Of a stretch of DNA of 64,000 bases, positions 55,085-63,990 are shown in pieces; the stretch's first letter is position 1, and every line of letters begins with the position of its first letter. Origin of the DNA: Escherichia phage DaisyDussoix. The DNA lies in sequence record MZ501058; one strand, given 5' to 3'. A program made the position numbers and the translations under genes. The notes beneath the pieces are model-generated. The model did not search any database, had not been told where the DNA came from, and saw only the letters and a list, made by a program, of their open reading frames with translations.

Positions 55085-55100
55085 CTGTATATTTATACAG
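55085..55100. promoter_or_regulatory. LexA (SOS) box upstream of the minus-strand operon
   Basis: CTGTATATTTATACAG core, CTGT-N8-ACAG, about 270 bp upstream of the 54818 start. Confidence 0.55.
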
Positions 55101-55110
55101 TGGAATAACC

Positions 55111-55192
55111 TGTGGATAAGTCTGTGTAAAAGTCCTTATATCGCCGCCTATCGTGTCAAGTTATTTTGTGCTGTGGATAACGTTGTGGATAA
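55111..55192. promoter_or_regulatory. DnaA box cluster (3 sites, inverted orientation)
   Basis: TGTGGATAA at 55111-55119, 55172-55180, 55184-55192. Confidence 0.6.
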
Positions 55193-55443
55193 CTTAAATG
55201 ATAGTGGTTCTCACTTAGCTAGATGATTTCTTATAGTTATTATTTCTCATTAATTTATATGTATATTATATATCATGAAATAGTTATTTAGCTAATGAGA
55301 TTTTTCGTGATTAATAGTCTGCTAATAGTTTACTCTGTTACAGTCCACCAGCATGATTATCATCCTAGCAATTATTATCCTGCTATCTTTCCGATACATA
55401 CTAGCAAACAAAAGTCAATTAATTTATTTCATAAAATAAGTAG

Positions 55444-55510
55444 TTATCCACTGGAAAATAAAAGTCAAGTGGATAACTAGGAAAATTTCATTTTTGCTTT
55501 TGGGGATAAG
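55444..55510. promoter_or_regulatory. additional DnaA-box-like sites in divergent intergenic region
   Basis: TTATCCAC at 55444, GTGGATAA at 55470, GGGGATAAG at 55502. Confidence 0.4.
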
Positions 55511-55923
55511 TTATCAACAAGGCTAGAATGCGCCTAAAACGCCCTAGAACGCGATGAAGTTTTTAGCCATCCCATCATAAGGGAACACGCCGTTTATCGC
55601 CATCAGGAGGATTCTAGATTTTGTCAAGTATGGCAAAGCAAATATAAATGAAAAAATTACTTGCCTATTTGCTATGTTTTGTGGTATTCGCGCGCCCGTT
55701 TCTTTTAATTTTAGGCCGTCGCCGCACGGTGTCCGGTGAGTTTTACCTTTACATTTCTTTACAAAAATAAGGTTGCGCCATTTTCGGGAATCCCCTATTA
55801 TTTATCACGTAGGGCGGCAATGACGAACTACACGGCGGGAAGTTTACCGCCACGCTCTTTAAAAATTGGGTACATCTTAAAGCCTATCGGCGGTAAACTT
55901 ATACATTATAAGGAATCGACGAT

Positions 55924-56127
55924 ATGAAACAAACGCTTTTGATCACTGGCAAGCCTATTAAGGCACTAGATAGCAAAACAAAAAATTTGTTGACAGTAGC
56001 TCAAAGATCAGTAAAATATAGATTCACGCAGTACAAGAAAGGTCGCCAGCAAGGTCTGGAAATGATCTGGCGAAACATTATGATTGACTTGAAAGAAAAT
56101 CATAAAAAACTGCAAAAAACAGTTTGA
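55924..56127 (+). CDS. hypothetical small basic protein
   Basis: 67 aa ORF. Confidence 0.4.
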   Translation: MKQTLLITGKPIKALDSKTKNLLTVAQRSVKYRFTQYKKGRQQGLEMIWRNIMIDLKENHKKLQKTV

Positions 56128-56354
56128 CAACCTAGCCGATAGGCTTTAAGATGTACTCAGTTCGATAAGAGCGATAACTTGATAAAATTTGACGGTCGGC
56201 ACTTACCATAATGTGTCCCGCCCCCTAACTGGGATATAGCGGCCTACGTGGAGTTCTTTAAATTGATTATAGCGGTGAGCGGATTGTTGCTTATTACCTG
56301 CTACTTTCTAGCAGGTAATGCGGAACAATCCCCAAATAACTAGGAGTTTATATT

Positions 56355-56606
56355 ATGAAAAACGTTATTACCGCGCCTAAAATTGGTCAATCCGTTTTTA
56401 TTCCTTTCGTTACTAAAACGGATGAACTAACCGGAAAAGCCGAACGTATTAAAGGTGCGGCGCTTATGCCGTTTGATACAATCGACGCGGTATACGCTGA
56501 AAATGAACGTAGTAACAACGGCAAAACCGTTTTTAGCGTTCGCGTTAAATCCGGCGACGTTGTAAAGGTTGTTCAACGTAACGAAAAATGGGAAGCTGTA
56601 TTGTAA
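56355..56606 (+). CDS. hypothetical protein
   Basis: 83 aa ORF with AGGAG RBS, followed by perfect palindrome. Confidence 0.5.
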   Translation: MKNVITAPKIGQSVFIPFVTKTDELTGKAERIKGAALMPFDTIDAVYAENERSNNGKTVFSVRVKSGDVVKVVQRNEKWEAVL

Positions 56607-56620
56607 TGTAGTGTTAACTT

Positions 56621-56650
56621 TATATCCCCCTTATTTCAGGGGGATATAAC
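56621..56650. terminator. perfect 10-bp-stem palindrome (terminator or operator) in pre-early region
   Basis: TATATCCCCC-TTATTTCA-GGGGGATATA; no U-tract. Confidence 0.45.
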
Positions 56651-56663
56651 GATTAACATTAGG

Positions 56664-56682
56664 TTAATCTAATCCCTTAAAT
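56664..56682 (+). promoter_or_regulatory. conserved pre-early leader motif TTAATCTAATCCCTTAAAT
   Basis: Same 19-mer about 20 nt upstream of the 56704, 57490 and 59985 start codons. Confidence 0.5.
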
Positions 56683-56703
56683 TAAACTAATAGGAGTTTT
56701 ATC

Positions 56704-57111
56704 ATGACTAACGCTAAAACCGCAAAATTCGGATGGAATGAAGAAAACACTCAGAAAGCTGTTTCCATGTATCAGCAGTTAATTAATGAAAACGGTTTAG
56801 ATTTCGCAAATAGCGACGGCCTGAAAGAGATTGCAAAAGCAGTAGGCGCGGCTTCCCCTGTATCCGTTCGCTCAAAATTGACCAGTGCAAAAGCCTATCA
56901 AAAAAGCGATAAGCCGCGTAAAGTTGGCGGCGGTAGCTCTGTGCGTAAAGCTCACTATGTGCGAGTAATTGCAAAACACGCTATCGATTCCGGCATTATC
57001 AAAGACGCCGATGATCTGGCAAGTCTGGAAAGTGCAAAACTTGAAACGCTGGACGCAGTAGCGCAATTGTTAGGCGTTGCCGATGAAGTAAAACAGGCCG
57101 CAGGGGAATAA
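56704..57111 (+). CDS. pre-early protein, A2-like by size and position
   Basis: 135 aa ORF preceded by the conserved leader motif; placed next to the A1-like gene; A2 identity is from memory of size only. Confidence 0.45.
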   Translation: MTNAKTAKFGWNEENTQKAVSMYQQLINENGLDFANSDGLKEIAKAVGAASPVSVRSKLTSAKAYQKSDKPRKVGGGSSVRKAHYVRVIAKHAIDSGIIKDADDLASLESAKLETLDAVAQLLGVADEVKQAAGE

Positions 57112-57158
57112 TAGTTATATCTTGCCCCCTTCTAGTGAGGGGGCAATAATATAACTGT
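57112..57158. terminator. long palindrome (terminator or operator)
   Basis: TAGTTATATCTTGCCCCCT-TCTAGTGA-GGGGGCAATAATATAACT. Confidence 0.45.
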
Positions 57159-57201
57159 TTAGCGATAGTTATTTTCTTCCCTTAAATCAGGAGTTTTAAA
57201 A

Positions 57202-57399
57202 ATGATTTTCTTCCCTACTGAATCATTAATTCTAGGCTTGTTTATTATGGCGGCCTCGTTATTGTTCGCTTATTTTCAAAATGATTTAGATTCATATTAT
57301 TTTAAACGTAAATCTAAACTAGCAAAACGTTTAGGTCTGCTTTGTTTTATCGCTGCCGTTGCTTGTGGTGTTAGTTCTAGCCTAGTGCCTTTAAATTAA
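57202..57399 (+). CDS. small membrane protein
   Basis: 65 aa with hydrophobic segments. Confidence 0.4.
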   Translation: MIFFPTESLILGLFIMAASLLFAYFQNDLDSYYFKRKSKLAKRLGLLCFIAAVACGVSSSLVPLN

Positions 57400-57406
57400 T
57401 GTTGCA

Positions 57407-57440
57407 AATTATAACGCCTATTATTTGAGGCGTTATATTT
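57407..57440. terminator. palindrome (terminator or operator)
   Basis: AATTATAACGCCT-ATTATTTG-AGGCGTTATATTT. Confidence 0.45.
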
Positions 57441-57456
57441 GGCAATATTGCCATTA

Positions 57457-57475
57457 TTAATCTAATCCCTTTAAT
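57457..57475 (+). promoter_or_regulatory. conserved pre-early leader motif
   Basis: TTAATCTAATCCCTTTAATGGAG upstream of A1-like gene. Confidence 0.5.
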
Positions 57476-57489
57476 GGAGTTTTATTACT

Positions 57490-59160
57490 ATGATTATTTC
57501 CGCAGAAAAACAAACCGTTATCCTGAAAATGGCCGCTGACTTTAATTTCTATGGTAAACGTCTGCGCGCTACTAAACTGGAGGTCTGCGACGATATATCA
57601 AAAGCAGTCTACGATACAACGAAACATTCCACCGCCATTTGTGATTGGCTGGAAGCAAACAAACCAGCGAAACCAAAAGCGGCAAAAGTAGCAAAAGCCA
57701 TTAAAAATGATGAGCGCCCAGAAGCGGCTGGGATTGTTTCTAGTACCGTGGAACAGTGGGAAGTAAAACAGGGTAAACGTTTTATTATTACGTCGATTCA
57801 GAATAATACTTTCCCGCATAAAAACTTTTTGGCCTCACTGGAGCAATTTGCTAAATATATCGGCGCTGATTTGCTGGTTAGCAAGTATATTTATAATAAA
57901 AACGGATTCCAAAATGGGGAAGGTGCGGACGGTATCAAATATGACCCCGCTTTTGATAAATATATTTGCAGCAAAAACGTGTTTTTGAATAATCGCCGTT
58001 TTGCTTTCATGGCTGAAATTAACGTTTTGCCAACCGCAGATTATCCGCTTTCTGGATTCGCTGAAACTGCAACCGCGCTTAATCTTGAAGGTCTGGCAAT
58101 TGGTCACGCTAAAATCACCGCCGAAAGCGTTCCAGCTTTAAAAGGTGAAGTAGTGCGCCGTATGTATTCAACCGGAACGGCAACGCTCAAAAACTACATT
58201 CAGCAGAAGGCAGGACAAAAAGCCGAAGCATTGCATAATTTCGGTGCGCTTGTTGTCGAGTTCGACGAGGACGGTGAGTTTTTTGTTCGCCAGCTTGAAA
58301 CAATGGACGAAAGCGGGGTGTTTTATGATCTGAATGTTTGCGCTACTCCCGCCGGATGCTATGAAACAACGGGGCACGTTTTAGGTTTACAATATGGCGA
58401 CATTCACGCCGAAAAATTAGATGAAGAGTGCGCCGCCGCATCTTGGGGGCATGGTGATACTTATGGGCTTGTGGATATTCTTAAACCAAAATATCAGTTT
58501 GTGCATGACGTGCATGATTTTACGTCCCGCAATCATCATAACCGCGCATCCGGTGTATTCCTAGCAAAACAGTATGCCGCCGGACGTGATAAAGTTCTGG
58601 ATGATCTTATCGATACGGGGCGAGTGCTGGAATCAATGGAACGTGATTTTAGTCAAACGATCATTGTTGAATCGAATCACGATTTGGCGCTATCCCGTTG
58701 GCTTGATGATCGTAATGCTAACATTAAAGACGATCCCGCGAACGCCGAACTATATCATCGCCTGAATGCTGCAATTTACGCGGCAATCGGTGAACATGAC
58801 GAAACGTTTAACGTGCTAGATTATGCGTTGCGCAAGGTTGCAGGTTGTGAATTTAACGCCATTTTTCTAACGACTGACCAATCTTTCAAGATTGCAGGGA
58901 TTGAATGCGGCGTACACGGTCACAATGGCATTAACGGCAGCCGTGGCAATCCTAAACAATTTAAGAAATTGGGCAAGTTAAACACGGGGCATACGCATAC
59001 CGCCAGCATTTACGGCGGCGTATACACCGCTGGCGTAGCTGGTAGTCTGGATATGGGTTACAACGTTGGCGCGTCAAGCTGGACGCAGACGCATTTAATT
59101 ACCTATGCAAATGGTCAAAGAACATTGATTGACTTTAAGAACGGTAAATTCTTTGCATAA
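57490..59160 (+). CDS. A1: pre-early protein A1-like metallophosphoesterase-domain protein
   Basis: 556 aa; C-terminal half has YGDIHAE, ESNHD, GVHGHNG, GHTHT calcineurin-like phosphoesterase motifs; length matches my recollection of T5 A1. Confidence 0.7.
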   Translation: MIISAEKQTVILKMAADFNFYGKRLRATKLEVCDDISKAVYDTTKHSTAICDWLEANKPAKPKAAKVAKAIKNDERPEAAGIVSSTVEQWEVKQGKRFIITSIQNNTFPHKNFLASLEQFAKYIGADLLVSKYIYNKNGFQNGEGADGIKYDPAFDKYICSKNVFLNNRRFAFMAEINVLPTADYPLSGFAETATALNLEGLAIGHAKITAESVPALKGEVVRRMYSTGTATLKNYIQQKAGQKAEALHNFGALVVEFDEDGEFFVRQLETMDESGVFYDLNVCATPAGCYETTGHVLGLQYGDIHAEKLDEECAAASWGHGDTYGLVDILKPKYQFVHDVHDFTSRNHHNRASGVFLAKQYAAGRDKVLDDLIDTGRVLESMERDFSQTIIVESNHDLALSRWLDDRNANIKDDPANAELYHRLNAAIYAAIGEHDETFNVLDYALRKVAGCEFNAIFLTTDQSFKIAGIECGVHGHNGINGSRGNPKQFKKLGKLNTGHTHTASIYGGVYTAGVAGSLDMGYNVGASSWTQTHLITYANGQRTLIDFKNGKFFA

Positions 59161-59175
59161 TTAAATTATTCCCCT

Positions 59176-59199
59176 AGCGGCTTGAAATATAGCCGCTAT
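59176..59199. terminator. palindrome after A1-like gene
   Basis: TAGCGGCT-TGAAATAT-AGCCGCTA. Confidence 0.45.
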
Positions 59200-59215
59200 T
59201 TCAGGAGTCACAAAA

Positions 59216-59473
59216 ATGAAAGTTACATTACCCAAAACACTGGACGAAAAAGTATTCATTTCACCGGATGAAATGGAATCTGATAAAGTTTACAGCTTCG
59301 GGCCTATCCTAGCCGCCAAAACTAATACTGATGGCATTATTTCCGTCGATTCCCGTGATAATGATGTTGTTCCTTTTGATGACGATAGCGCTTTTTATGA
59401 GTGGCTAAGCGATAATAATTTACCCGTAAACGGTGAATTAACGCCGTACCAGATGCAGATTATTATCAAATAA
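59216..59473 (+). CDS. hypothetical acidic protein
   Basis: 85 aa ORF. Confidence 0.5.
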   Translation: MKVTLPKTLDEKVFISPDEMESDKVYSFGPILAAKTNTDGIISVDSRDNDVVPFDDDSAFYEWLSDNNLPVNGELTPYQMQIIIK

Positions 59474-59511
59474 ATTAAATCCATTATTAAACTAATTGGA
59501 GTTTTATAAAC

Positions 59512-59904
59512 ATGAAAAAGCAAAATATTCCATTCGATCGCGCTCAGTCTTCCATTGTTCTGGTTTATTCTAATGGTGAACGTTATCACGTCGAGGCAGG
59601 CCACGTTATTGATGAATTATTAGATTTCAATGATGCGATGCAGGTTACAACATTTGCATATATGCAGGGCAAACTAACCAGCCATATTAAAGCAAAAGGC
59701 GTTTATGTTGACACGATGAAACAAGAAACAATCATTATTGACGCGGTAAAATCTGGTCTAGCCTTTGCAGTTGTCGCGCCTTGCCCCGCTTGCCTTGATG
59801 ATCAGCTAACGAGTGCGAAAGTATATACTTGTGCGGGTATTCGTTCCAGCGTATCCGGTGAGGATGTTAGTTTTATCGCTGATGCGTTGGCTTATGGTCT
59901 TTAA
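59512..59904 (+). CDS. hypothetical protein
   Basis: 130 aa ORF preceded by conserved leader. Confidence 0.5.
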   Translation: MKKQNIPFDRAQSSIVLVYSNGERYHVEAGHVIDELLDFNDAMQVTTFAYMQGKLTSHIKAKGVYVDTMKQETIIIDAVKSGLAFAVVAPCPACLDDQLTSAKVYTCAGIRSSVSGEDVSFIADALAYGL

Positions 59905-59914
59905 TAGTTGATTT

Positions 59915-59946
59915 ATTATTACCCGCTTATAAATAGCGGGTAATGC
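59915..59946. terminator. palindrome (terminator or operator)
   Basis: TTATTACCCGCT-TATAAAT-AGCGGGTAATG. Confidence 0.45.
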
Positions 59947-59950
59947 TGAA

Positions 59951-59969
59951 TTAATCTAATCCCTTAAAT
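59951..59969 (+). promoter_or_regulatory. conserved pre-early leader motif
   Basis: TTAATCTAATCCCTTAAATGGAG upstream of dmp-like gene. Confidence 0.5.
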
Positions 59970-59984
59970 GGAGAACGCAACAAA

Positions 59985-60719
59985 ATGAATAAAGCTATTA
60001 TGAATATTTCCCGCAGCTTCCCGCATATTTCCCGCGTCATGATTTGGGATTTAGACGGCACTATCATTAATTCTTTCCATCGTGTAGCGCCTTGCTTTGA
60101 TAATGAGGGTAATTTAGATTTAAATAAGTATAAAAATGAAGCCTGCAAACATCATTTAATAATGCAAGATACTTTATTACCATTAGTTGAATACATGCGC
60201 CAGTGCATGAATGACTCAAATACTTTAAACATTATTTGCACCGCTCGACTAATGAGCAAATCAGATTATTACTTCCTGCGCAAACAAGGCTTGCGTGGTC
60301 GTGATAAAAGCAATATCCGCGTGTTTTCCCGCGACACACTGCATAAATATTTTAAAGCTGATAAGGTTAGCGAAATATACCACAGCAAGGACGCAGTGTA
60401 TAAATCTTATTATTTTGAGTTATTTAAACAGTTATATCCGAACGCTGATTTTACAATGATTGATGATCATAAAGGCGTGCTATCAGCGGCAGCGTCATAC
60501 GGATTTAAAACACTGGACGCACAAGCCGTTAACGATATTCTATCAATCGGCGTGGCATTAATAGGTGAAACCTTTATTGATGAATCCCTCGACGATGATA
60601 ATGATTATCAATTCCTAGCTGATCGTTTGAAATTATGTTGGGAAGGTATGACCGAGGAAGAACGCGCAGAATATAGTTGCAGCCCGCAACAATACATGGA
60701 GAAATTAAAAGTTGCATAA
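59985..60719 (+). CDS. dmp: HAD-family 5'-deoxyribonucleotidase-like protein
   Basis: 244 aa; IWDLDGTIINS HAD motif I; dmp assignment from position in the A1 cluster. Confidence 0.7.
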   Translation: MNKAIMNISRSFPHISRVMIWDLDGTIINSFHRVAPCFDNEGNLDLNKYKNEACKHHLIMQDTLLPLVEYMRQCMNDSNTLNIICTARLMSKSDYYFLRKQGLRGRDKSNIRVFSRDTLHKYFKADKVSEIYHSKDAVYKSYYFELFKQLYPNADFTMIDDHKGVLSAAASYGFKTLDAQAVNDILSIGVALIGETFIDESLDDDNDYQFLADRLKLCWEGMTEEERAEYSCSPQQYMEKLKVA

Positions 60720-60736
60720 TAATTAAAGTTGAAATA

Positions 60737-60773
60737 GTTTCACCCTGCAATTAAAATGGTTGCAGGGTGAAAC
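60737..60773. terminator. palindrome after dmp-like gene, likely bidirectional terminator
   Basis: GTTTCACCCTGCAA-TTAAAATGG-TTGCAGGGTGAAAC, between convergent gene sets. Confidence 0.55.
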
Positions 60774-60883
60774 AGTTACCCTGATAATAGTAACGGGGGT
60801 GGCGGTTAGCAGACTAAGTATTCTCCCCCAACCCACTGGACACACCTCCATGTGTAATCTTATGAAATTTGGCAAAAGTCAAA

Positions 60884-61129
60884 TTAGCGCATAGAAGGGT
60901 CATCAAACCTGTGTTCTGGTCTGAACTCACGGAATCTCTTCCGCGATGCCCGAGATCCATCCGACCACTCCCGCTCAAACTCCGCACGTTTCTCGTCAAA
61001 CTTCCGCTCCCTTTCCGCAATCTCCCGCGACACTCCCGCAATATATTCCCGATGCTTGTTAATTGCCGCAGTCGCTCCGAAAACTCCCGCGAGTATCCCG
61101 ATAATAAAAGCAATTACAATACTAAACAT
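60884..61129 (-). CDS. small membrane protein
   Basis: 81 aa with N-terminal TM helix. Confidence 0.45.
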   Translation of the reverse strand: MFSIVIAFIIGILAGVFGATAAINKHREYIAGVSREIAERERKFDEKRAEFEREWSDGSRASRKRFREFRPEHRFDDPSMR

Positions 61130-61316
61130 CTAATTCCCTCTCAATTTGCAGAATACGGGTGCTATCACAACGTTGCAGTAGTACTAGCTTTTCTAGAGTA
61201 ACTTGTTGTTGTTTTACCTGAGCTTCTAGAGTTTTTAGGCGAACATACGCGTTATAAGAAACAATGAAAGTTGCCCAGACCAGTATTACTATTAGTGTAG
61301 CTACTACTTCCATCAT
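61122..61316 (-). CDS. small membrane protein
   Basis: 64 aa with N-terminal TM helix. Confidence 0.45.
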   Translation of the reverse strand: MMEVVATLIVILVWATFIVSYNAYVRLKTLEAQVKQQQVTLEKLVLLQRCDSTRILQIERELDV

Positions 61317-61318
61317 TT

Positions 61319-61426
61319 ACGTTTCTCCAGTAATAAGGTTTCAATTCTATCTAAGTGATTATCCAAAATACATTGCCCAATAATCACAATTCCTAGTAGT
61401 GCAATAATTACCCATTCCATTATTTA
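61319..61426 (-). CDS. tiny membrane protein, paralog of 61420..61575
   Basis: About 35 aa (MEWVIIALLGIVIIG...RIETLLLEKRK); shares MEWVII and RIETLLEE ends with neighbour. Confidence 0.3.
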
Positions 61427-61575
61427 CGCTCCTCTAATAAAGTTTCAATTCTAGATAATCTATTACTCAACTGCATTAATTTAATTTCTGTTTGGGTTAC
61501 AGAGGTATCTATTACACGTAAGCCTACAAAGAGAAGTATCAATAAGACGAATATGCCAATAATTACCCATTCCAT
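61420..61575 (-). CDS. tiny membrane protein
   Basis: Internal Met MEWVIIGIFVLLILLFVGL of ORF 61420..61605. Confidence 0.4.
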   Translation of the reverse strand: MEWVIIGIFVLLILLFVGLRVIDTSVTQTEIKLMQLSNRLSRIETLLEERK

Positions 61576-61701
61576 TAAATCCACCCCGCCATAGCTGCTA
61601 ACCAAAAACCTACGAAGATTAGGAATAATACAAAACCAAATCCGTAAATATTAATCCACGCTTCGTACACTTCTCCACGTCTGTTCTTTCTTTTATTTGA
61701 C
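61573..61701 (-). CDS. tiny membrane protein
   Basis: About 42 aa (MSNKRKNRRGEVYEAWINIYGFGFVLFLIFVGFWL...); below ORF-track cutoff. Confidence 0.3.
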
Positions 61702-61880
61702 ATATCTTTCTTGCTCCTATGAGTATGGTATTTTAAAATATTTTATAATTTGTATATAACCAACCATGCTTGTGACTTCCTAGAAGGACTTCTCATTTTC
61801 TTACATAGTGGTTTCTGCCAATATACCATCCAAAAAATAAAAAATTTAGTTTACTTAGATGTCTTTTTGCTTTATACTAA

Positions 61881-62147
61881 TTACAGGTAGTTAGATTGCT
61901 CTAGTTTAAATTTACAATCACCATATTTAAGGTCAAACTGACTGAGATCCCACCATCCAAACTTAGTACGGAGCTGTACTACTGGGAAGCGATCTCCCTT
62001 AATACGAACTTTTTGAACCTTGAGGCCGTAATGTTCTTCTCCCGCACCACCAAAAGATTTTACAAATCCAGTACAAAATGGTTTGGGAGCAGGTGCACAA
62101 CCAGATAACATAACTGCGGCAACTAGTGCAATCACAAACTTTTTCAT
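61881..62147 (-). CDS. llp: Llp-like lipoprotein (candidate receptor-blocking superinfection-exclusion protein)
   Basis: 88 aa; signal peptide with lipobox LSGC; divergent from the adjacent RBP-like gene, as recalled for T5 llp/oad. Confidence 0.6.
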   Translation of the reverse strand: MKKFVIALVAAVMLSGCAPAPKPFCTGFVKSFGGAGEEHYGLKVQKVRIKGDRFPVVQLRTKFGWWDLSQFDLKYGDCKFKLEQSNYL

Positions 62148-62232
62148 ATTTATCTCTCCATTTCTAATTTATGAATCTATTATAGCAAAATAGAGGGATG
62201 AAAGCAAATACATTTTTATAATAGGAGATTAT

Positions 62233-63990
62233 ATGGGTTTTTTCGCTGGAAAATATAGCGATGGTAAGACCGTACTATCTTTAAATACTGAATCTGGTGG
62301 TGACATTAATCGTCACTATAGTCCAAATGCCAATAGTATTTTTCATAGTGATATGCCATTTGTCCTAGTTGATGGTACTTATGAGGCTGGGTTAGGAAAT
62401 GCCGGAAATGGGTTTTTTGTATGTCAGATGCCCTCTGACATAATAAATATTAAATCTAACGATCCTGGTAGAGTTATATTAACTGCTATTGAGATTAATG
62501 GTACTCACAGAGCTTTTCTTAATGGTACTCAGAGTAAGGTGGGTCAAACTATAGTTGCCACTCAAGCAGATCCTTTTAGATCTTTTGCTAGTGTTTCCCA
62601 GACTAGTGGATTTGCATTTGGTAATAGCCTGGCATCTGGTACATATAACTATAATCCATCTATAGGGCATGAAGAATCTATTTCTAGGAATGGTACTGGT
62701 GGAACTACCCTACATAGTACGTATCATGGTATAGTTAGGCCAGGTGCAGGAGCTCCAGTAGGGGTTACTGTTGCAAAAGCTTTTGCACAGTTAGGATTCC
62801 CTACTAATAGTAGTACAGTACCTATAGATGGGAATAACCAAAATTACTGGGACCCAGGATGGATGTCTCCTTTAGGATCAGCACACAGAGGGCACGATTG
62901 GTTCTATGTTTGTAACTCTAACATACGTGGGTATGGTGGGGTAAGACAAGGTCTTCCTGGTAATGTAAATACTATGTATCATGATGGGGGTAATAGGTTT
63001 GTTTGTAGGGGTTCTACAACTAATTTAGCTAATCAATCTGGTGATTCTACAATACTACAAGATTGGTATAACATAACTCCTACTAAAGTTATTTGGTACG
63101 TTTTGAATTTAAGATACTCAAATGGTGGTATGAGTATCTCTGGTAATCCTTTTACTGGTTCAGATATTCTTATATCTCCTTCTAATTTCATAATTAAAGG
63201 GGTTAGTCTTCCCAATACTGGATACAAGTTTATTAACCAGAACGCTTTCGGTAACTTAGGTTATAGACCAGATATGGAATATATTGGAAATAATGCAGCA
63301 TATACTGGGGCCTTTGGGGATACCACCGCAAGGTGCGAACTTGTAGGTTCTAGTAACGGGAGTTTATGGTCTCCTGTGGACTATGGAGGGGCTAAGTCTC
63401 AAATTAGTATTTACAAATTCGGAGCTGGTAAGCAATGGTACGTAAACTCTAATGATAATACTATCGGTAATGGACACGGGGTTGTTTGGGGACCATCAGC
63501 AGTTCCATTACGACTTTTTGGTGGAAATGTAGGTAGTTCTTATATGGGAGATGATATTACCCCCAGCTACCCAGGAACAGGAGATAGATACGTTGGTTTA
63601 TCAACTATTGGGCTAGGTATACCGGGTGGCAATGCTACAGTAATTCTTACCACTGAAGTTATATCAGGTAATCTTAACTGTGCAGGTGTCCCTGCTAATA
63701 CATGGAATAACGGTGTGTTTCAGGTGCAAGGAAGAAGAGCATATAGTTATAGTAATGGTGACGCGATATTCCACCAGATTTTAACATTACCAGTAGGGTA
63801 TTTAGTACCTTTTCATACTACATCTGCTTTTAGATACACACCTAACAATGCCCTAAGTAGAAATAGTTTTATATATACTGCTAAAAATCTGGGGAATGGA
63901 AATGTAGAGTTAGGGGTAGTTATGCACGTAAGTTTAGGTAGTGCAGTTTTTCTACCTAGATTAAGAGTAACAGTTCAACGCCTTACCTAA
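62233..63990 (+). CDS. receptor-binding tail protein (pb5/Oad-like)
   Basis: 585 aa; N-terminus MGFFAGKYSDGKTVLSLNTESGGDINRHYSPNANSIFHSDMP resembles my recollection of T5 pb5; Gly/Asn/Thr-rich. Confidence 0.6.
   Translation: MGFFAGKYSDGKTVLSLNTESGGDINRHYSPNANSIFHSDMPFVLVDGTYEAGLGNAGNGFFVCQMPSDIINIKSNDPGRVILTAIEINGTHRAFLNGTQSKVGQTIVATQADPFRSFASVSQTSGFAFGNSLASGTYNYNPSIGHEESISRNGTGGTTLHSTYHGIVRPGAGAPVGVTVAKAFAQLGFPTNSSTVPIDGNNQNYWDPGWMSPLGSAHRGHDWFYVCNSNIRGYGGVRQGLPGNVNTMYHDGGNRFVCRGSTTNLANQSGDSTILQDWYNITPTKVIWYVLNLRYSNGGMSISGNPFTGSDILISPSNFIIKGVSLPNTGYKFINQNAFGNLGYRPDMEYIGNNAAYTGAFGDTTARCELVGSSNGSLWSPVDYGGAKSQISIYKFGAGKQWYVNSNDNTIGNGHGVVWGPSAVPLRLFGGNVGSSYMGDDITPSYPGTGDRYVGLSTIGLGIPGGNATVILTTEVISGNLNCAGVPANTWNNGVFQVQGRRAYSYSNGDAIFHQILTLPVGYLVPFHTTSAFRYTPNNALSRNSFIYTAKNLGNGNVELGVVMHVSLGSAVFLPRLRVTVQRLT

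What the first reader, a model, noticed from the sequence alone, without database searches (positions are those of the whole stretch)
55924..60773. Pre-early-like gene block with a conserved 19-bp leader and perfect palindromes between every gene
The genes resembling T5 A2, A1 and dmp are each preceded by the same TTAATCTAATCCCTTAAAT-GGAG element. They are separated by long perfect palindromes that lack U-tracts. This points to a shared regulatory or translational-control signal and possible protein-binding operators rather than simple terminators.
Basis: seen in the sequence. Interest (0 to 1): 0.5.

Follow-up and report, generated by a model that had tools for sequence, protein, structure and literature searches.

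The report
Hairpin-plus-leader spacers in T5 pre-early operon
The first genes a T5-like phage expresses are separated by RNA hairpins that are not normal terminators, each followed by a short, very conserved C-rich leader before the next ribosome-binding site; the layout is real, conserved across related phages and apparently undescribed, but it resembles known ways of punctuating a multi-gene messenger RNA.

Summary
The block is the left pre-early (first-step-transfer) operon of a T5-like phage, gene for gene syntenic with T5 hdi-007-A2-005-A1-003-002-dmp.

The 19-mer occurs three times (0.08 expected). A shorter core (ATCCCTTWAAT) or a degenerate form precedes five or six of the seven cistrons and none of 94 other ORFs in the window. 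The "palindromes" are stem-loops, not perfect palindromes. They are 8-26 bp interrupted helices that start at the upstream stop codon, and one junction has none. None has a U-tract, whereas annotated T5 terminators elsewhere do.

Relatives show compensatory changes, wholesale hairpin replacement, and G·U but almost no A·C mismatches. So these are RNA structures in the sense transcript, not DNA operators. Published Bas33 RNA-seq shows no stepwise loss across them.

The leader core is as conserved as codon positions 1+2 (0.98 against 0.72 at four-fold sites). A C-run in a G-free leader persists in the one Klebsiella phage examined, and the core survives at one junction in two Pectobacterium phages.

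Most likely the hairpins punctuate, stabilise or process the polycistronic mRNA, and the leader is an operon-specific translation-initiation element. The spacers also act as joints for gene-cassette exchange. Function is inferred, not shown.

The parts
55924..56127 (+). hdi-like first cistron (T5.008 homologue); it contains the P-H22-like promoter
   Evidence: phrog_4718 and DUF7416; synteny with T5.008
55990..56017 (+). P-H22-like sigma-70 promoter (TTGACA-16-TAAAAT)
   Evidence: 11 of 12 matches. It aligns with the annotated T5 P-H22. P-H22 was validated as pre-early in vivo (PMC7472727).
56124..56152 (+). P-D/E20-like sigma-70 promoter (TTGACA-17-TAAGAT)
   Evidence: aligns with the T5 P-D/E20 annotation
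56281..56331 (+). Stem-loop in the 5' UTR of 007 (23-nt arms), followed by the weak leader AATCCCCAAATAAC and GGAG at 56343
   Evidence: I2; segment MFE -31.8, z -5.1; compensatory variants
56355..56606 (+). 007 homologue (83 aa, DUF7177)
56604..56666 (+). Intercistronic RNA hairpin 1. It starts at the 007 stop codon and has about 26 bp interrupted. No U-tract.
   Evidence: z -5.2; upper helix 100% paired in 27 distinct sequences, 5 of 11 pairs changed on both sides.
56664..56682 (+). Leader copy 1 (exact 19-mer); GGAG at 56693-56696, 7 nt before the A2 ATG
   Evidence: core mean pairwise identity 0.98
56704..57111 (+). A2 homologue
   Evidence: phrog_1725; T5.006 synteny
57110..57159 (+). Intercistronic RNA hairpin 2 (about 21 bp). 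An unrelated 9-bp hairpin occupies this position in T5-type relatives.
   Evidence: (I6)
57177..57188 (+). Degenerate leader (TTCCCTTAAATC) before 005; GGAG at 57190-57193
57202..57399 (+). 005 homologue (65-aa membrane protein)
   Evidence: phrog_4820
57397..57453 (+). Intercistronic RNA hairpin 3 (about 21 bp), plus an alternative small hairpin TGGCAATATTGCCA
   Evidence: (I4)
57457..57475 (+). Leader copy 2 (1 mismatch); GGAG at 57476-57479
57490..59160 (+). A1 homologue (556 aa)
   Evidence: phrog_1745, E 3e-244
59175..59198 (+). Intercistronic RNA hairpin 4 (8 bp, TAGCGGCT/AGCCGCTA). The upstream UUCCC can pair with the 003-slot SD.
59216..59473 (+). Variable '003-slot' cassette (85 aa), not homologous to T5.003
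   Evidence: No nucleotide match to T5 between 59208 and 59463. The slot holds an 85-aa, 92-aa or 169-aa HNH gene, or nothing.
59477..59497 (+). Degenerate long leader before 002 (AAATCCATTATTAAACTAATT); GGAG at 59498. No hairpin at this junction.
59512..59904 (+). 002 homologue (130 aa)
   Evidence: phrog_4576
59905..59958 (+). Intercistronic RNA hairpin 5 (about 22 bp); at least 4 unrelated hairpin types occupy this position in relatives
   Evidence: (I11)
59951..59969 (+). Leader copy 3 (exact); GGAG at 59970-59973
59985..60719 (+). dmp homologue (5'-deoxynucleotidase)
   Evidence: phrog_415; T5.001 synteny
60737..60773 (+). Operon-end hairpin (17 pairs, two of them G·U; no U-tract), about 70 bp inside the terminal-repeat boundary (about 60842)
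   Evidence: I16; z -6.7. Compensatory and U·G variants, and a second hairpin type, appear.

Best explanation
The block is the left pre-early operon of a T5-like phage. Host RNA polymerase transcribes it as one polycistronic mRNA from the P-H22-like and P-D/E20-like promoters.

Nearly every cistron junction carries a two-part RNA spacer.

1. A stable stem-loop begins at the upstream stop codon and has no U-tract. It acts in the sense RNA. It is not an efficient terminator and not a DNA operator. Most probably it marks and protects the 3' end of the upstream segment against 3'-to-5' exonucleases, and/or serves as a processing site. This would resemble the stem-loops between T7 early genes and stabilising stem-loops in bacterial operons. 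It would also insulate the next ribosome-binding site from upstream sequence.

2. A G-free, largely unpaired leader follows, with a conserved C-run core (AUCCCUUWAAU) 4-14 nt before a GGAG Shine-Dalgarno. It most probably works in the mRNA as an operon-specific part of the translation-initiation region, as a ribosome or S1 standby or enhancer site.

Because the same short spacers recur at each junction, they also serve as recombination joints where hairpins and whole genes (the 003 slot) are exchanged.

Shown: the anatomy, the RNA-level constraint, the absence of terminator tails, the purifying selection on the core, the operon specificity and the cassette polymorphism. Inferred: the stabilising or processing role, the translational role, and the use of the spacers in recombination.
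For: Identity and promoters: and PMC7472727.

Hairpins are real and strong:
- z-scores run from -3.9 to -6.7, and 0 of 200 shuffles fold as well.
- They start at the stop codon.

The constraint is on the sense RNA:
- The hairpin 1 upper helix is 100% paired in 27 distinct sequences. Five of 11 pairs change on both sides, and one pair shows CG, AU, GC and UA. All one-sided changes are U·G. No shuffle of 500 reaches the covariation score.
- A Watson-Crick-only search over 87 unique hairpins finds internal G·T 17 against A·C 2.
- Sense RNA is more stable than antisense in 121 of 151 unique spacers against 20, by a mean of 2.9 kcal/mol.
- Unrelated hairpins sit at the same junctions in different phages.

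Not terminators:
- T count in the 8 nt after the stem is mostly 4 or fewer, and none was picked up as a canonical terminator.
- Annotated T5 terminators have clear U-tracts.
- Bas33 has the same architecture. Its RNA-seq levels are 007 12199, A2 5207, 005 1171, A1 4925, 003 1143, 002 4425 and dmp 2218. That is non-monotonic, and A1 is about equal to A2 after two hairpins.

Leader:
- Enrichment.
- Core identity 0.98, against 0.72 at four-fold sites, 0.50 in the loop and 0.974 at codon positions 1+2.
- Present in all close relatives.
- A C-run version is present in Klebsiella phage IME260, and one copy in each of the Pectobacterium phages My1 and DU_PP_V.
- Core-like motif before 5 of 7 operon genes against 0 of 94 other ORFs; G-free run 17.7 against 6.5 nt.
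- Core mostly unpaired in predicted ensembles (P about 0.65-0.70 at A2, 005, A1 and dmp).

Cassette joints.
Against: - No direct mapping of RNA ends, half-lives or translation exists for these spacers, so every functional step is inference.
- Hairpin length is not uniform (8 to 26 bp), which argues against a strict RNase III requirement.
- The Bas33 numbers are gene-level CLC 'max group means' at 20 min. Short genes may be biased, and weak internal promoter-like sites exist (57273-57300, 59438-59466, 59708-59735).
- The SD itself is predicted to be only 15-30% unpaired at most junctions, partly through weak CCC:GG(A) pairing. That would fit a mildly repressive leader as well as an enhancing one.
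- The other pre-early operon lacks the leader, so it is not a general requirement of pre-early expression.
- Relatives are phylogenetically non-independent, so the p-values are overstated.
Confidence: 0.55

Rival explanations
1. The hairpins are leaky intrinsic terminators (attenuators). They would set a falling gradient of transcription from 007 and A2 down to dmp, with the weak T-containing tails plus NusA/NusG giving partial termination.
For: - In the Pectobacterium relatives My1 and DU_PP_V, hairpins at two junctions of this operon in each phage, including the one before the gene upstream of dmp, carry real U-tracts (6 T in 8). The ancestral element may therefore have been a terminator.
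- Some window tails are T-rich close to the stem (AGCCGCUAUUUC; GGCGUUAUAUUUGG).
- Bas33 007 is 5.5-fold above dmp.
Against: - There are no canonical U-tracts in any of about 36 close relatives, while the same genomes use canonical terminators elsewhere.
- Bas33 levels rise again after 005 and after 003, and A1 is about equal to A2. Termination alone cannot produce that.
Confidence: 0.15
2. The conserved leader is the binding site of a dedicated trans-acting factor, such as a phage pre-early protein, a host RNA-binding protein or Rho. That factor would co-ordinately control translation, stability or polarity of these cistrons, for example in the A1-dependent shut-off of pre-early expression.
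For: - Sequence-specific conservation is as strong as at coding positions.
- The motif is operon-specific and keeps a fixed orientation.
- Spacing to the SD varies from 4 to 14 nt, which suits a bound factor better than a strict ribosomal contact.
- The leader is G-free and C-containing, as in Rho or S1 ligands (the ligand preferences are background knowledge).
- The shut-off mechanism is unresolved (PMC10644984).
Against: - No candidate factor has been identified.
- No complementary RNA exists in the window or in T5 1-61 kb.
- Reported A1 action is on RNA polymerase and promoters.
- The idea overlaps with, rather than excludes, the enhancer reading.
Confidence: 0.15
3. The spacers are chiefly recombination modules, a PeSL-like system without the promoter. 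They would persist because they mediate cassette shuffling, with no biochemical role of their own.
For: - The 003 slot holds an 85-aa, 92-aa or 169-aa HNH gene, or nothing. The joints lie within a few bases of the SD and the stop codon.
- Hairpins are swapped wholesale at fixed junctions.
- L022 carries a tandem duplication at a junction.
- The analogy is with the PeSLs of T4-type phages (PMC4122927).
Against: - Recombination does not explain base-pair covariation with a G·U bias.
- It also does not explain an 11-nt core kept at 0.98 identity while adjacent spacer bases drift to 0.68-0.77.
- Only one slot is clearly polymorphic for gene content.
Confidence: 0.08
4. The palindromes are DNA operators for a dimeric phage or host protein (for example A2), and the 19-mer is a DNA-binding site.
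For: - A2 is annotated as DNA-binding.
- The repeats lie in the DNA that must be handled during second-step transfer.
Against: - Arm sequences are not conserved, whereas pairing is.
- G·T is tolerated but A·C is not.
- There is strand asymmetry of folding.
- The elements always lie between a stop codon and an SD in the sense orientation.
Confidence: 0.04
5. The leaders contain weak internal promoters, or degenerate boxA (NusB/NusE) sites, that re-start transcription or make it termination-resistant at each junction.
For: - AY692264 annotates a 'putative promoter' over the A1 leader.
- Bas33 transcript levels rise at A1 and 002.
- The core resembles lambda nutL boxA at 7 of 11 positions (my own comparison, from memory).
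- A much better boxA-like sequence lies upstream at 55853.
Against: - No promoter with 9 or more of 12 matches and proper spacing lies in any leader. The candidate -10 hexamers lack the A at position 2.
- The 38-nt 003-to-002 junction has no room for a promoter.
- The boxA positions that matter (GCUCUU) are not matched.
Confidence: 0.03

Closest known systems
Phage T5 pre-early (first-step-transfer) left operon, dmp-A1-A2-hdi (NC_005859, AY692264)
   Same: - The gene order and orientation are the same, as are the promoters (P-H22, P-D/E20).
- The hairpin positions and leader core also match.
- The window is 89-90% identical to T5 across the block.
- It is 93.5% identical to its best GenBank relative.
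   Different: - The 003-slot gene is unrelated.
- The A2-to-005 hairpin is of a different type.
- hegG (HNH) is absent upstream.
- The hairpin-plus-leader spacers carry no annotation in either T5 record, apart from one 'putative promoter' drawn over the A1 leader in AY692264. They are also not mentioned in the T5 literature I could read.
Stem-loops between the early genes of phage T7 (RNase III processing sites)
   Same: - Both are polycistronic early operons transcribed by host RNA polymerase, with an interrupted stem-loop of about two helical turns at cistron junctions.
- In T7 the cleaved stem is left as a protective 3' end (background knowledge).
- Five of the seven window hairpins are 17-26 bp with small internal loops.
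   Different: - There is no sequence similarity and no Rfam hit.
- Lengths vary down to 8 bp.
- Cleavage by RNase III is untested.
- T7 sites are not followed by a shared leader.
PeSL (promoter-early stem-loop) cassettes of T4-type phages (PMC2839356, PMC4122927)
   Same: - Both are short composite intergenic motifs containing a stem-loop.
- Both are repeated at many junctions of early-gene regions.
- Both bound variable genes and are implicated as recombination joints (for PeSLs; here).
   Different: - PeSLs combine a terminator-like stem-loop with an early promoter.
- Here the second half is a promoter-less leader plus SD.
- The operon is conserved apart from one slot.
Stabilising intercistronic stem-loops in bacterial operons (e.g. 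REP elements, malEFG, puf, pap)
   Same: - Both are stable stem-loops without a U-tract immediately 3' of a cistron.
- The non-monotonic cistron abundance within one operon fits segmental stability (the family's properties are background knowledge).
   Different: - There is no REP-like consensus; each junction has its own sequence.
- The protective effect is not measured here.
Canonical Rho-independent terminators
   Same: Both have a GC-rich stem-loop downstream of a stop codon.
   Different: - The U-tract is absent.
- Transcripts continue past the hairpins.

Membership tests
T5-like pre-early (FST) left operon | Ordered homologues of hdi, 007, A2, 005, A1, 002 and dmp on one strand, next to the terminal-repeat end and the DnaA-box/iss region | tested here: met
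   - PHROG and Pfam hits.
- Colinear alignment with annotated T5.
- DnaA-box repeats at 55092-55525.
- 520 related phage records.
T5-like pre-early (FST) left operon | Strong sigma-70 promoters P-H22 and P-D/E20 at the hdi gene | tested here: met
   TTGACA-16-TAAAAT at 55990-56017 and TTGACA-17-TAAGAT at 56124-56152, aligned to the T5 annotations.
Rho-independent terminator | GC-rich stem-loop | tested here: met
Rho-independent terminator | Run of U (at least 5 of 8) directly after the stem | tested here: not met
   - T counts are 0-4 in almost all of the unique spacers.
- The main hairpins are not listed by the terminator scan.
- Annotated T5 terminators show the tract.
Rho-independent terminator | Transcript level drops across the element | tested here: not met
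   Published Bas33 gene-level RNA-seq is non-monotonic, and A1 is about equal to A2. This is gene-level only, so it excludes efficient termination but not weak termination.
DNA operator palindrome | Conserved half-site sequence in both arms | tested here: not met
   - Arms co-vary or are replaced.
- There is a G·U versus A·C asymmetry.
RNase III processing site (T7 early type) | About 20 bp or more of interrupted double-stranded RNA between cistrons | tested here: inconclusive
   Five of seven hairpins are 17-26 bp. One is 8 bp, and T5-type variants have about 9-bp perfect stems, extending to about 14 bp by inspection.
RNase III processing site (T7 early type) | Cleavage by RNase III in vivo or in vitro | not testable with these tools
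   This needs RNA-end mapping in rnc+ and rnc- hosts.
PeSL cassette (T4-type phages) | Composite of stem-loop plus early promoter | tested here: not met
   The stem-loop is present, but no promoter match lies in any leader.
PeSL cassette (T4-type phages) | Repeated motif bounding variable genes and recombination joints | tested here: met
   - Polymorphism of the 003 slot, with joints inside the spacers.
- Hairpin swapping.
Translational enhancer pairing with 16S rRNA (T7 gene 10 epsilon type) | Conserved complementarity of the leader to 16S rRNA | tested here: not met
   - ATCTAATCC is complementary to 16S 785-793 (9 nt; 21 of 500 shuffles do as well).
- That half of the 19-mer varies among relatives.
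- The conserved core has only a 6-nt match.
boxA / nut antitermination site | Match to the boxA core GCUCUU(U)A | tested here: not met
   - The leader core UCCCUUAAA differs at the G and the first U (comparison with the consensus from memory).
- A separate good match, CGCTCTTTAAAAATT, lies at 55853-55867, outside the spacers.
Rfam RNA families | Covariance-model match | tested here: not met
   There are no relevant hits at E up to 5 over 55400-61000.

The most novel reading that the evidence does not exclude
The C-run leader (AUCCCUUWAAU in T5-like phages, CCCC-WAA in a Klebsiella relative) may be a dedicated cis-regulatory RNA element. A specific factor would read it and co-ordinately switch translation or stability of the A2-A1-dmp operon cistrons. 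That would give a physical handle on the long-unexplained rapid shut-off of T5 pre-early expression. The upstream hairpins would then act as processing or protection sites that turn one transcript into separately controlled segments.
Probability: 0.15. Interest if true: 0.6.

Novelty: new variant of a known kind. Interest (0 to 1): 0.38.

Why it matters
T5 is a classical model phage. Its pre-early operon (A1, A2, dmp, hdi) carries out host takeover and second-step DNA transfer. How its expression is balanced and then abruptly shut off is still unknown.

The analysis gives a defined, conserved, operon-specific RNA architecture: U-tract-less hairpins that start at stop codons, each followed by an 11-nt leader core under coding-level constraint. 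This supplies concrete elements to mutate.

It also removes a tempting misreading, that the palindromes are operators or terminators. It suggests why gene cassettes and homing endonucleases insert at these junctions.

For genome annotation, these hairpins should not be called terminators in the several hundred T5-like genomes that match this block.

If the elements prove to be only generic stabilisers and a good ribosome-binding context, the finding is ordinary.

Tried and rejected
- **16S rRNA pairing.** The 19-mer has a perfect 9-nt complement to the 790 loop (785-793). I rejected it because that half of the motif is not conserved and 4% of shuffles do as well.
- **Anti-SD pairing of the C-run with GGAG.** Only 2-4 weak pairs are predicted, and the leader does not change when the bases beside the SD vary (by eye). 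I left it as a caveat.
- **Promoters in the leaders.** None were found.
- **boxA-like reading of the core.** The match is too poor.
- **Fur-box and IHF resemblance in the AT-rich spacer of hairpin 1.** I judged this by eye only and did not pursue it.
- **Trans-acting antisense RNA.** There is no complementary copy in the window or in T5 1-61 kb.
- **Rfam.** Nothing relevant.
- **Exact-motif scan of IMG/VR.** Two hits about 2.2-2.7 kb apart occur only in contigs of over 100 kb, several of them the same contigs as the A1-matched T5-like loci. The single hits elsewhere number about what chance would give, by my own rough estimate.
- **Distant A1 homologues (about 40% aa, metagenomic).** They have neither the hairpin pattern nor the leader, so they could not help.
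- **Davison 2015 review and Wang 2005 genome paper.** Neither could be read, so earlier mention of these hairpins there cannot be excluded.
- **The first biased G·U count.** It was discarded and replaced by the Watson-Crick-only search.

Full report
**What the region is.** The eight + strand ORFs between 55924 and 60719 match the PHROG families of the T5 pre-early proteins. These include A2 (phrog_1725), A1 (phrog_1745, E 3e-244) and dmp (phrog_415). The block is colinear with the minus strand of T5 positions 5041-15 at 89-90% identity. It matches 520 phage records, the best at 93.5%.
- The order is hdi/T5.008, 007, A2, 005, A1, a 003-slot gene, 002, dmp.
- The T5 promoters P-H22 and P-D/E20 have clear counterparts at 55990-56017 and 56124-56152. 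P-H22 is an experimentally validated pre-early promoter (PMC7472727).
- T5 position 1 aligns to about window 60842. The operon therefore ends about 70 bp inside the terminal-repeat boundary.
- Beyond the boundary lie a Cor/Llp-like lipoprotein gene and the receptor-binding tail protein gene.

**Checking the observation.** The 19-mer is present three times, against 0.08 expected.
- It abuts GGAG at A1 and dmp, but 10 bases intervene at A2.
- A shorter core, ATCCCTT(A/T)AAT, is the shared part. Looser versions precede 005, 002 and 007.
- The inverted repeats are stem-loops with 3-9 nt loops, not perfect palindromes.
- Folded as RNA they extend to 17-26 interrupted base pairs, with one of only 8 bp. 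They begin at the upstream stop codon. Segment energies are -16 to -33 kcal/mol with z-scores of -3.9 to -6.7.
- The 003-to-002 junction (38 nt) has no hairpin.
- None of the hairpins has a U-tract. Nine annotated T5 terminators elsewhere in the genome, checked the same way, show canonical tracts right after the stem.

**RNA or DNA?** I collected 57 loci encoding A1 relatives and compared junction by junction.
- In 27 distinct sequences, the upper helix of hairpin 1 is paired in 100% of cells. Five of 11 pairs change on both sides, and one pair runs through CG, AU, GC and UA.
- All one-sided changes in that helix are U·G, and no shuffle of 500 reaches the observed covariation score.
- At several junctions the hairpin is replaced outright by an unrelated one. 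There are two types after A2, at least four before dmp and two after dmp.
- A search that accepts only Watson-Crick pairs and treats all mismatches alike found 17 internal G·T mismatches against 2 A·C. Both A·C cases lie in dubious weak hairpins.
- The sense RNA folds better than the antisense RNA in 121 of 151 unique spacers against 20, by 2.9 kcal/mol on average.
- The sequences are related, so the p-values are inflated. Even so, the events are spread over different hairpins and lineages.
- This is what selection on an RNA helix in the sense transcript produces. It is the opposite of what a DNA operator would show.

**Terminators?** Besides the missing U-tracts, there is one experimental dataset.
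- The tequintavirus Bas33 (HildyBeyeler, MZ501074) has the same spacers.
- Its published RNA-seq gives, along the operon: hdi 1232, 007 12199, A2 5207, 005 1171, A1 4925, 003 1143, 002 4425, dmp 2218. These are CLC 'max group mean' values at 20 min (PMC13250531 Dataset S1).
- Levels do not fall step by step, and they rise again after 005 and after 003. Efficient termination is therefore excluded.
- The pattern fits differential stability of mRNA segments. Weak internal promoters and short-gene bias cannot be ruled out.
- In the Pectobacterium phages My1 and DU_PP_V (A1 66-67% identical), hairpins at two junctions of this operon in each phage do carry U-tracts. The T5-group hairpins may thus descend from terminators that lost their tails.

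**The leader.** Across 27 distinct relatives, mean pairwise identities are as follows.

| Region | Mean pairwise identity |
|---|---|
| 11-nt leader core | 0.98 |
| SD | 1.00 |
| A2 codon positions 1+2 | 0.974 |
| A2 four-fold degenerate sites | 0.72 |
| Flanking spacers | 0.68-0.77 |
| Hairpin loop | 0.50 |

- The 5' half of the 19-mer (TTAATCTA) varies.
- In the Klebsiella phage IME260 (Sugarlandvirus), every junction again has a U-tract-less hairpin. It is followed by a C-run, A-rich, G-free stretch before GGAG, for example CCCCTTAAATAAAACTGGAG.
- My1 and DU_PP_V keep TATCCCTTAATTGGAG at one junction.
- In the window, a core-like motif precedes 5 of 7 operon genes and 0 of 94 other ORFs. 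The G-free run before the SD averages 17.7 against 6.5 nt.
- The core is confined to this operon in the window and in T5 1-61 kb, apart from one stray 9-nt partial match in each. It is absent from the divergent pre-early operon.
- In predicted ensembles the core is mostly unpaired, while the SD is only partly free.
- A 9-nt complementarity to the 16S 790 loop is real, but it falls in the non-conserved half, so I reject it.
- No promoter, Rfam family or complementary RNA explains the core.

**Modularity.** The slot between A1 and 002 holds an 85-aa gene in the window, the unrelated 92-aa T5.003, a 169-aa HNH endonuclease, or nothing.
- The HNH endonuclease has its own SD buried in a hairpin.
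- Similarity breaks within a few bases of the SD and the stop codon.
- One genome has a tandem duplication at this junction.
- The repeated spacers thus behave like the PeSL cassettes of T4-type phages (PMC4122927), but without a promoter.

**Interpretation.**
- Shown: the anatomy, the RNA-level constraint, the lack of terminator features, selection on the core, operon specificity and cassette exchange.
- Inferred: the hairpins protect or define the 3' ends of mRNA segments, or are processing sites, and insulate the next ribosome-binding site.
- Also inferred: the leader is an operon-specific part of the translation-initiation region, or the target of a factor.
- In the left-terminal copy the template ends about 70 bp after the last hairpin. 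Run-off transcripts would therefore end in that hairpin, which fits a protective role (inference).
- I found no description of these spacers in the T5 literature available to me. Two key papers were unreadable.

**Verdict.** This is a real, conserved and mildly novel cis-architecture in a well-known operon. Interest is moderate.

Noticed in passing
window 55834-55867 (+): A small hairpin (GGCGG-gaagttta-CCGCC) is followed by CGCTCTTTAAAAATT. That sequence closely resembles lambda nutL and rrn boxA, a comparison made from memory. It is conserved in 34 of 40 close loci. It lies upstream of hdi, so it would be present only in transcripts from a promoter further upstream. It is a possible NusB/NusE antitermination site.
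   Followed up: partly
window 55853-55891 and 56135-56173: A 39-nt inverted repeat (85% complementary) brackets the hdi gene. The right arm carries the P-D/E20-like promoter. The left arm carries a mirrored promoter-like copy (TTTACC-N-TAAGAT) pointing leftwards on the minus strand. It probably corresponds to IRA/IRA' of Davison's 'Repeat Region 1'.
   Followed up: no
window 55092-55525: A cluster of DnaA-box-like repeats (TGTGGATAA / TTATCCAC) in direct and inverted arrangement. It corresponds to the IRC/IRD DnaA-box region that Davison (bioRxiv 866236) discusses in connection with the injection stop signal.
   Followed up: partly
window 56652-56669, 57148-57170, 57440-57453: At three junctions, the 3' base of the main hairpin can instead pair with a downstream near-copy of the 5' base: GATTAAC/GTTAATC, ATAACT/AGTTAT and TTGGCA/TGCCA. 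A terminating ribosome that melts the stem base could therefore switch the fold just upstream of the leader. These are AT-rich, so chance is not excluded.
   Followed up: no
window 56614-56622: TTAACTTTA, identical to the T7 gene 10 'epsilon' enhancer sequence (from memory), forms part of the 5' arm of hairpin 1. It is about 80 nt upstream of the A2 start. About 0.5 such 9-mers are expected per window, so it is probably coincidence.
   Followed up: no
L017 and L021, between A1 and 002 (L021 5739-6248): A 169-aa HNH_3 endonuclease gene is inserted in the 003 slot. Its own Shine-Dalgarno (GGAGGA) is buried in a 14-16 bp hairpin. Its reading frame ends inside the 002 leader.
   Followed up: partly
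L022, A1-to-003 junction: A roughly 125-nt tandem duplication covers the end of hairpin 4, the SD and the first part of the 85-aa gene. It is consistent with illegitimate recombination at the spacer.
   Followed up: no
window 60842-63990: The terminal-repeat boundary (aligned to T5 position 1) is followed by small minus-strand membrane-protein genes, a Cor/Llp-like lipoprotein gene (61881-62147, minus strand) and the receptor-binding tail protein gene (62233-63990). The assembly therefore joins the repeat to the late region, as at the right end of T5.
   Followed up: partly
window 59161-59207: At the A1-to-003 junction a C-run (UUCCCC) lies 5' of the hairpin. It is predicted to pair across the hairpin with the SD of the 003-slot gene. 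That would make this cassette's translation depend on the hairpin context.
   Followed up: no
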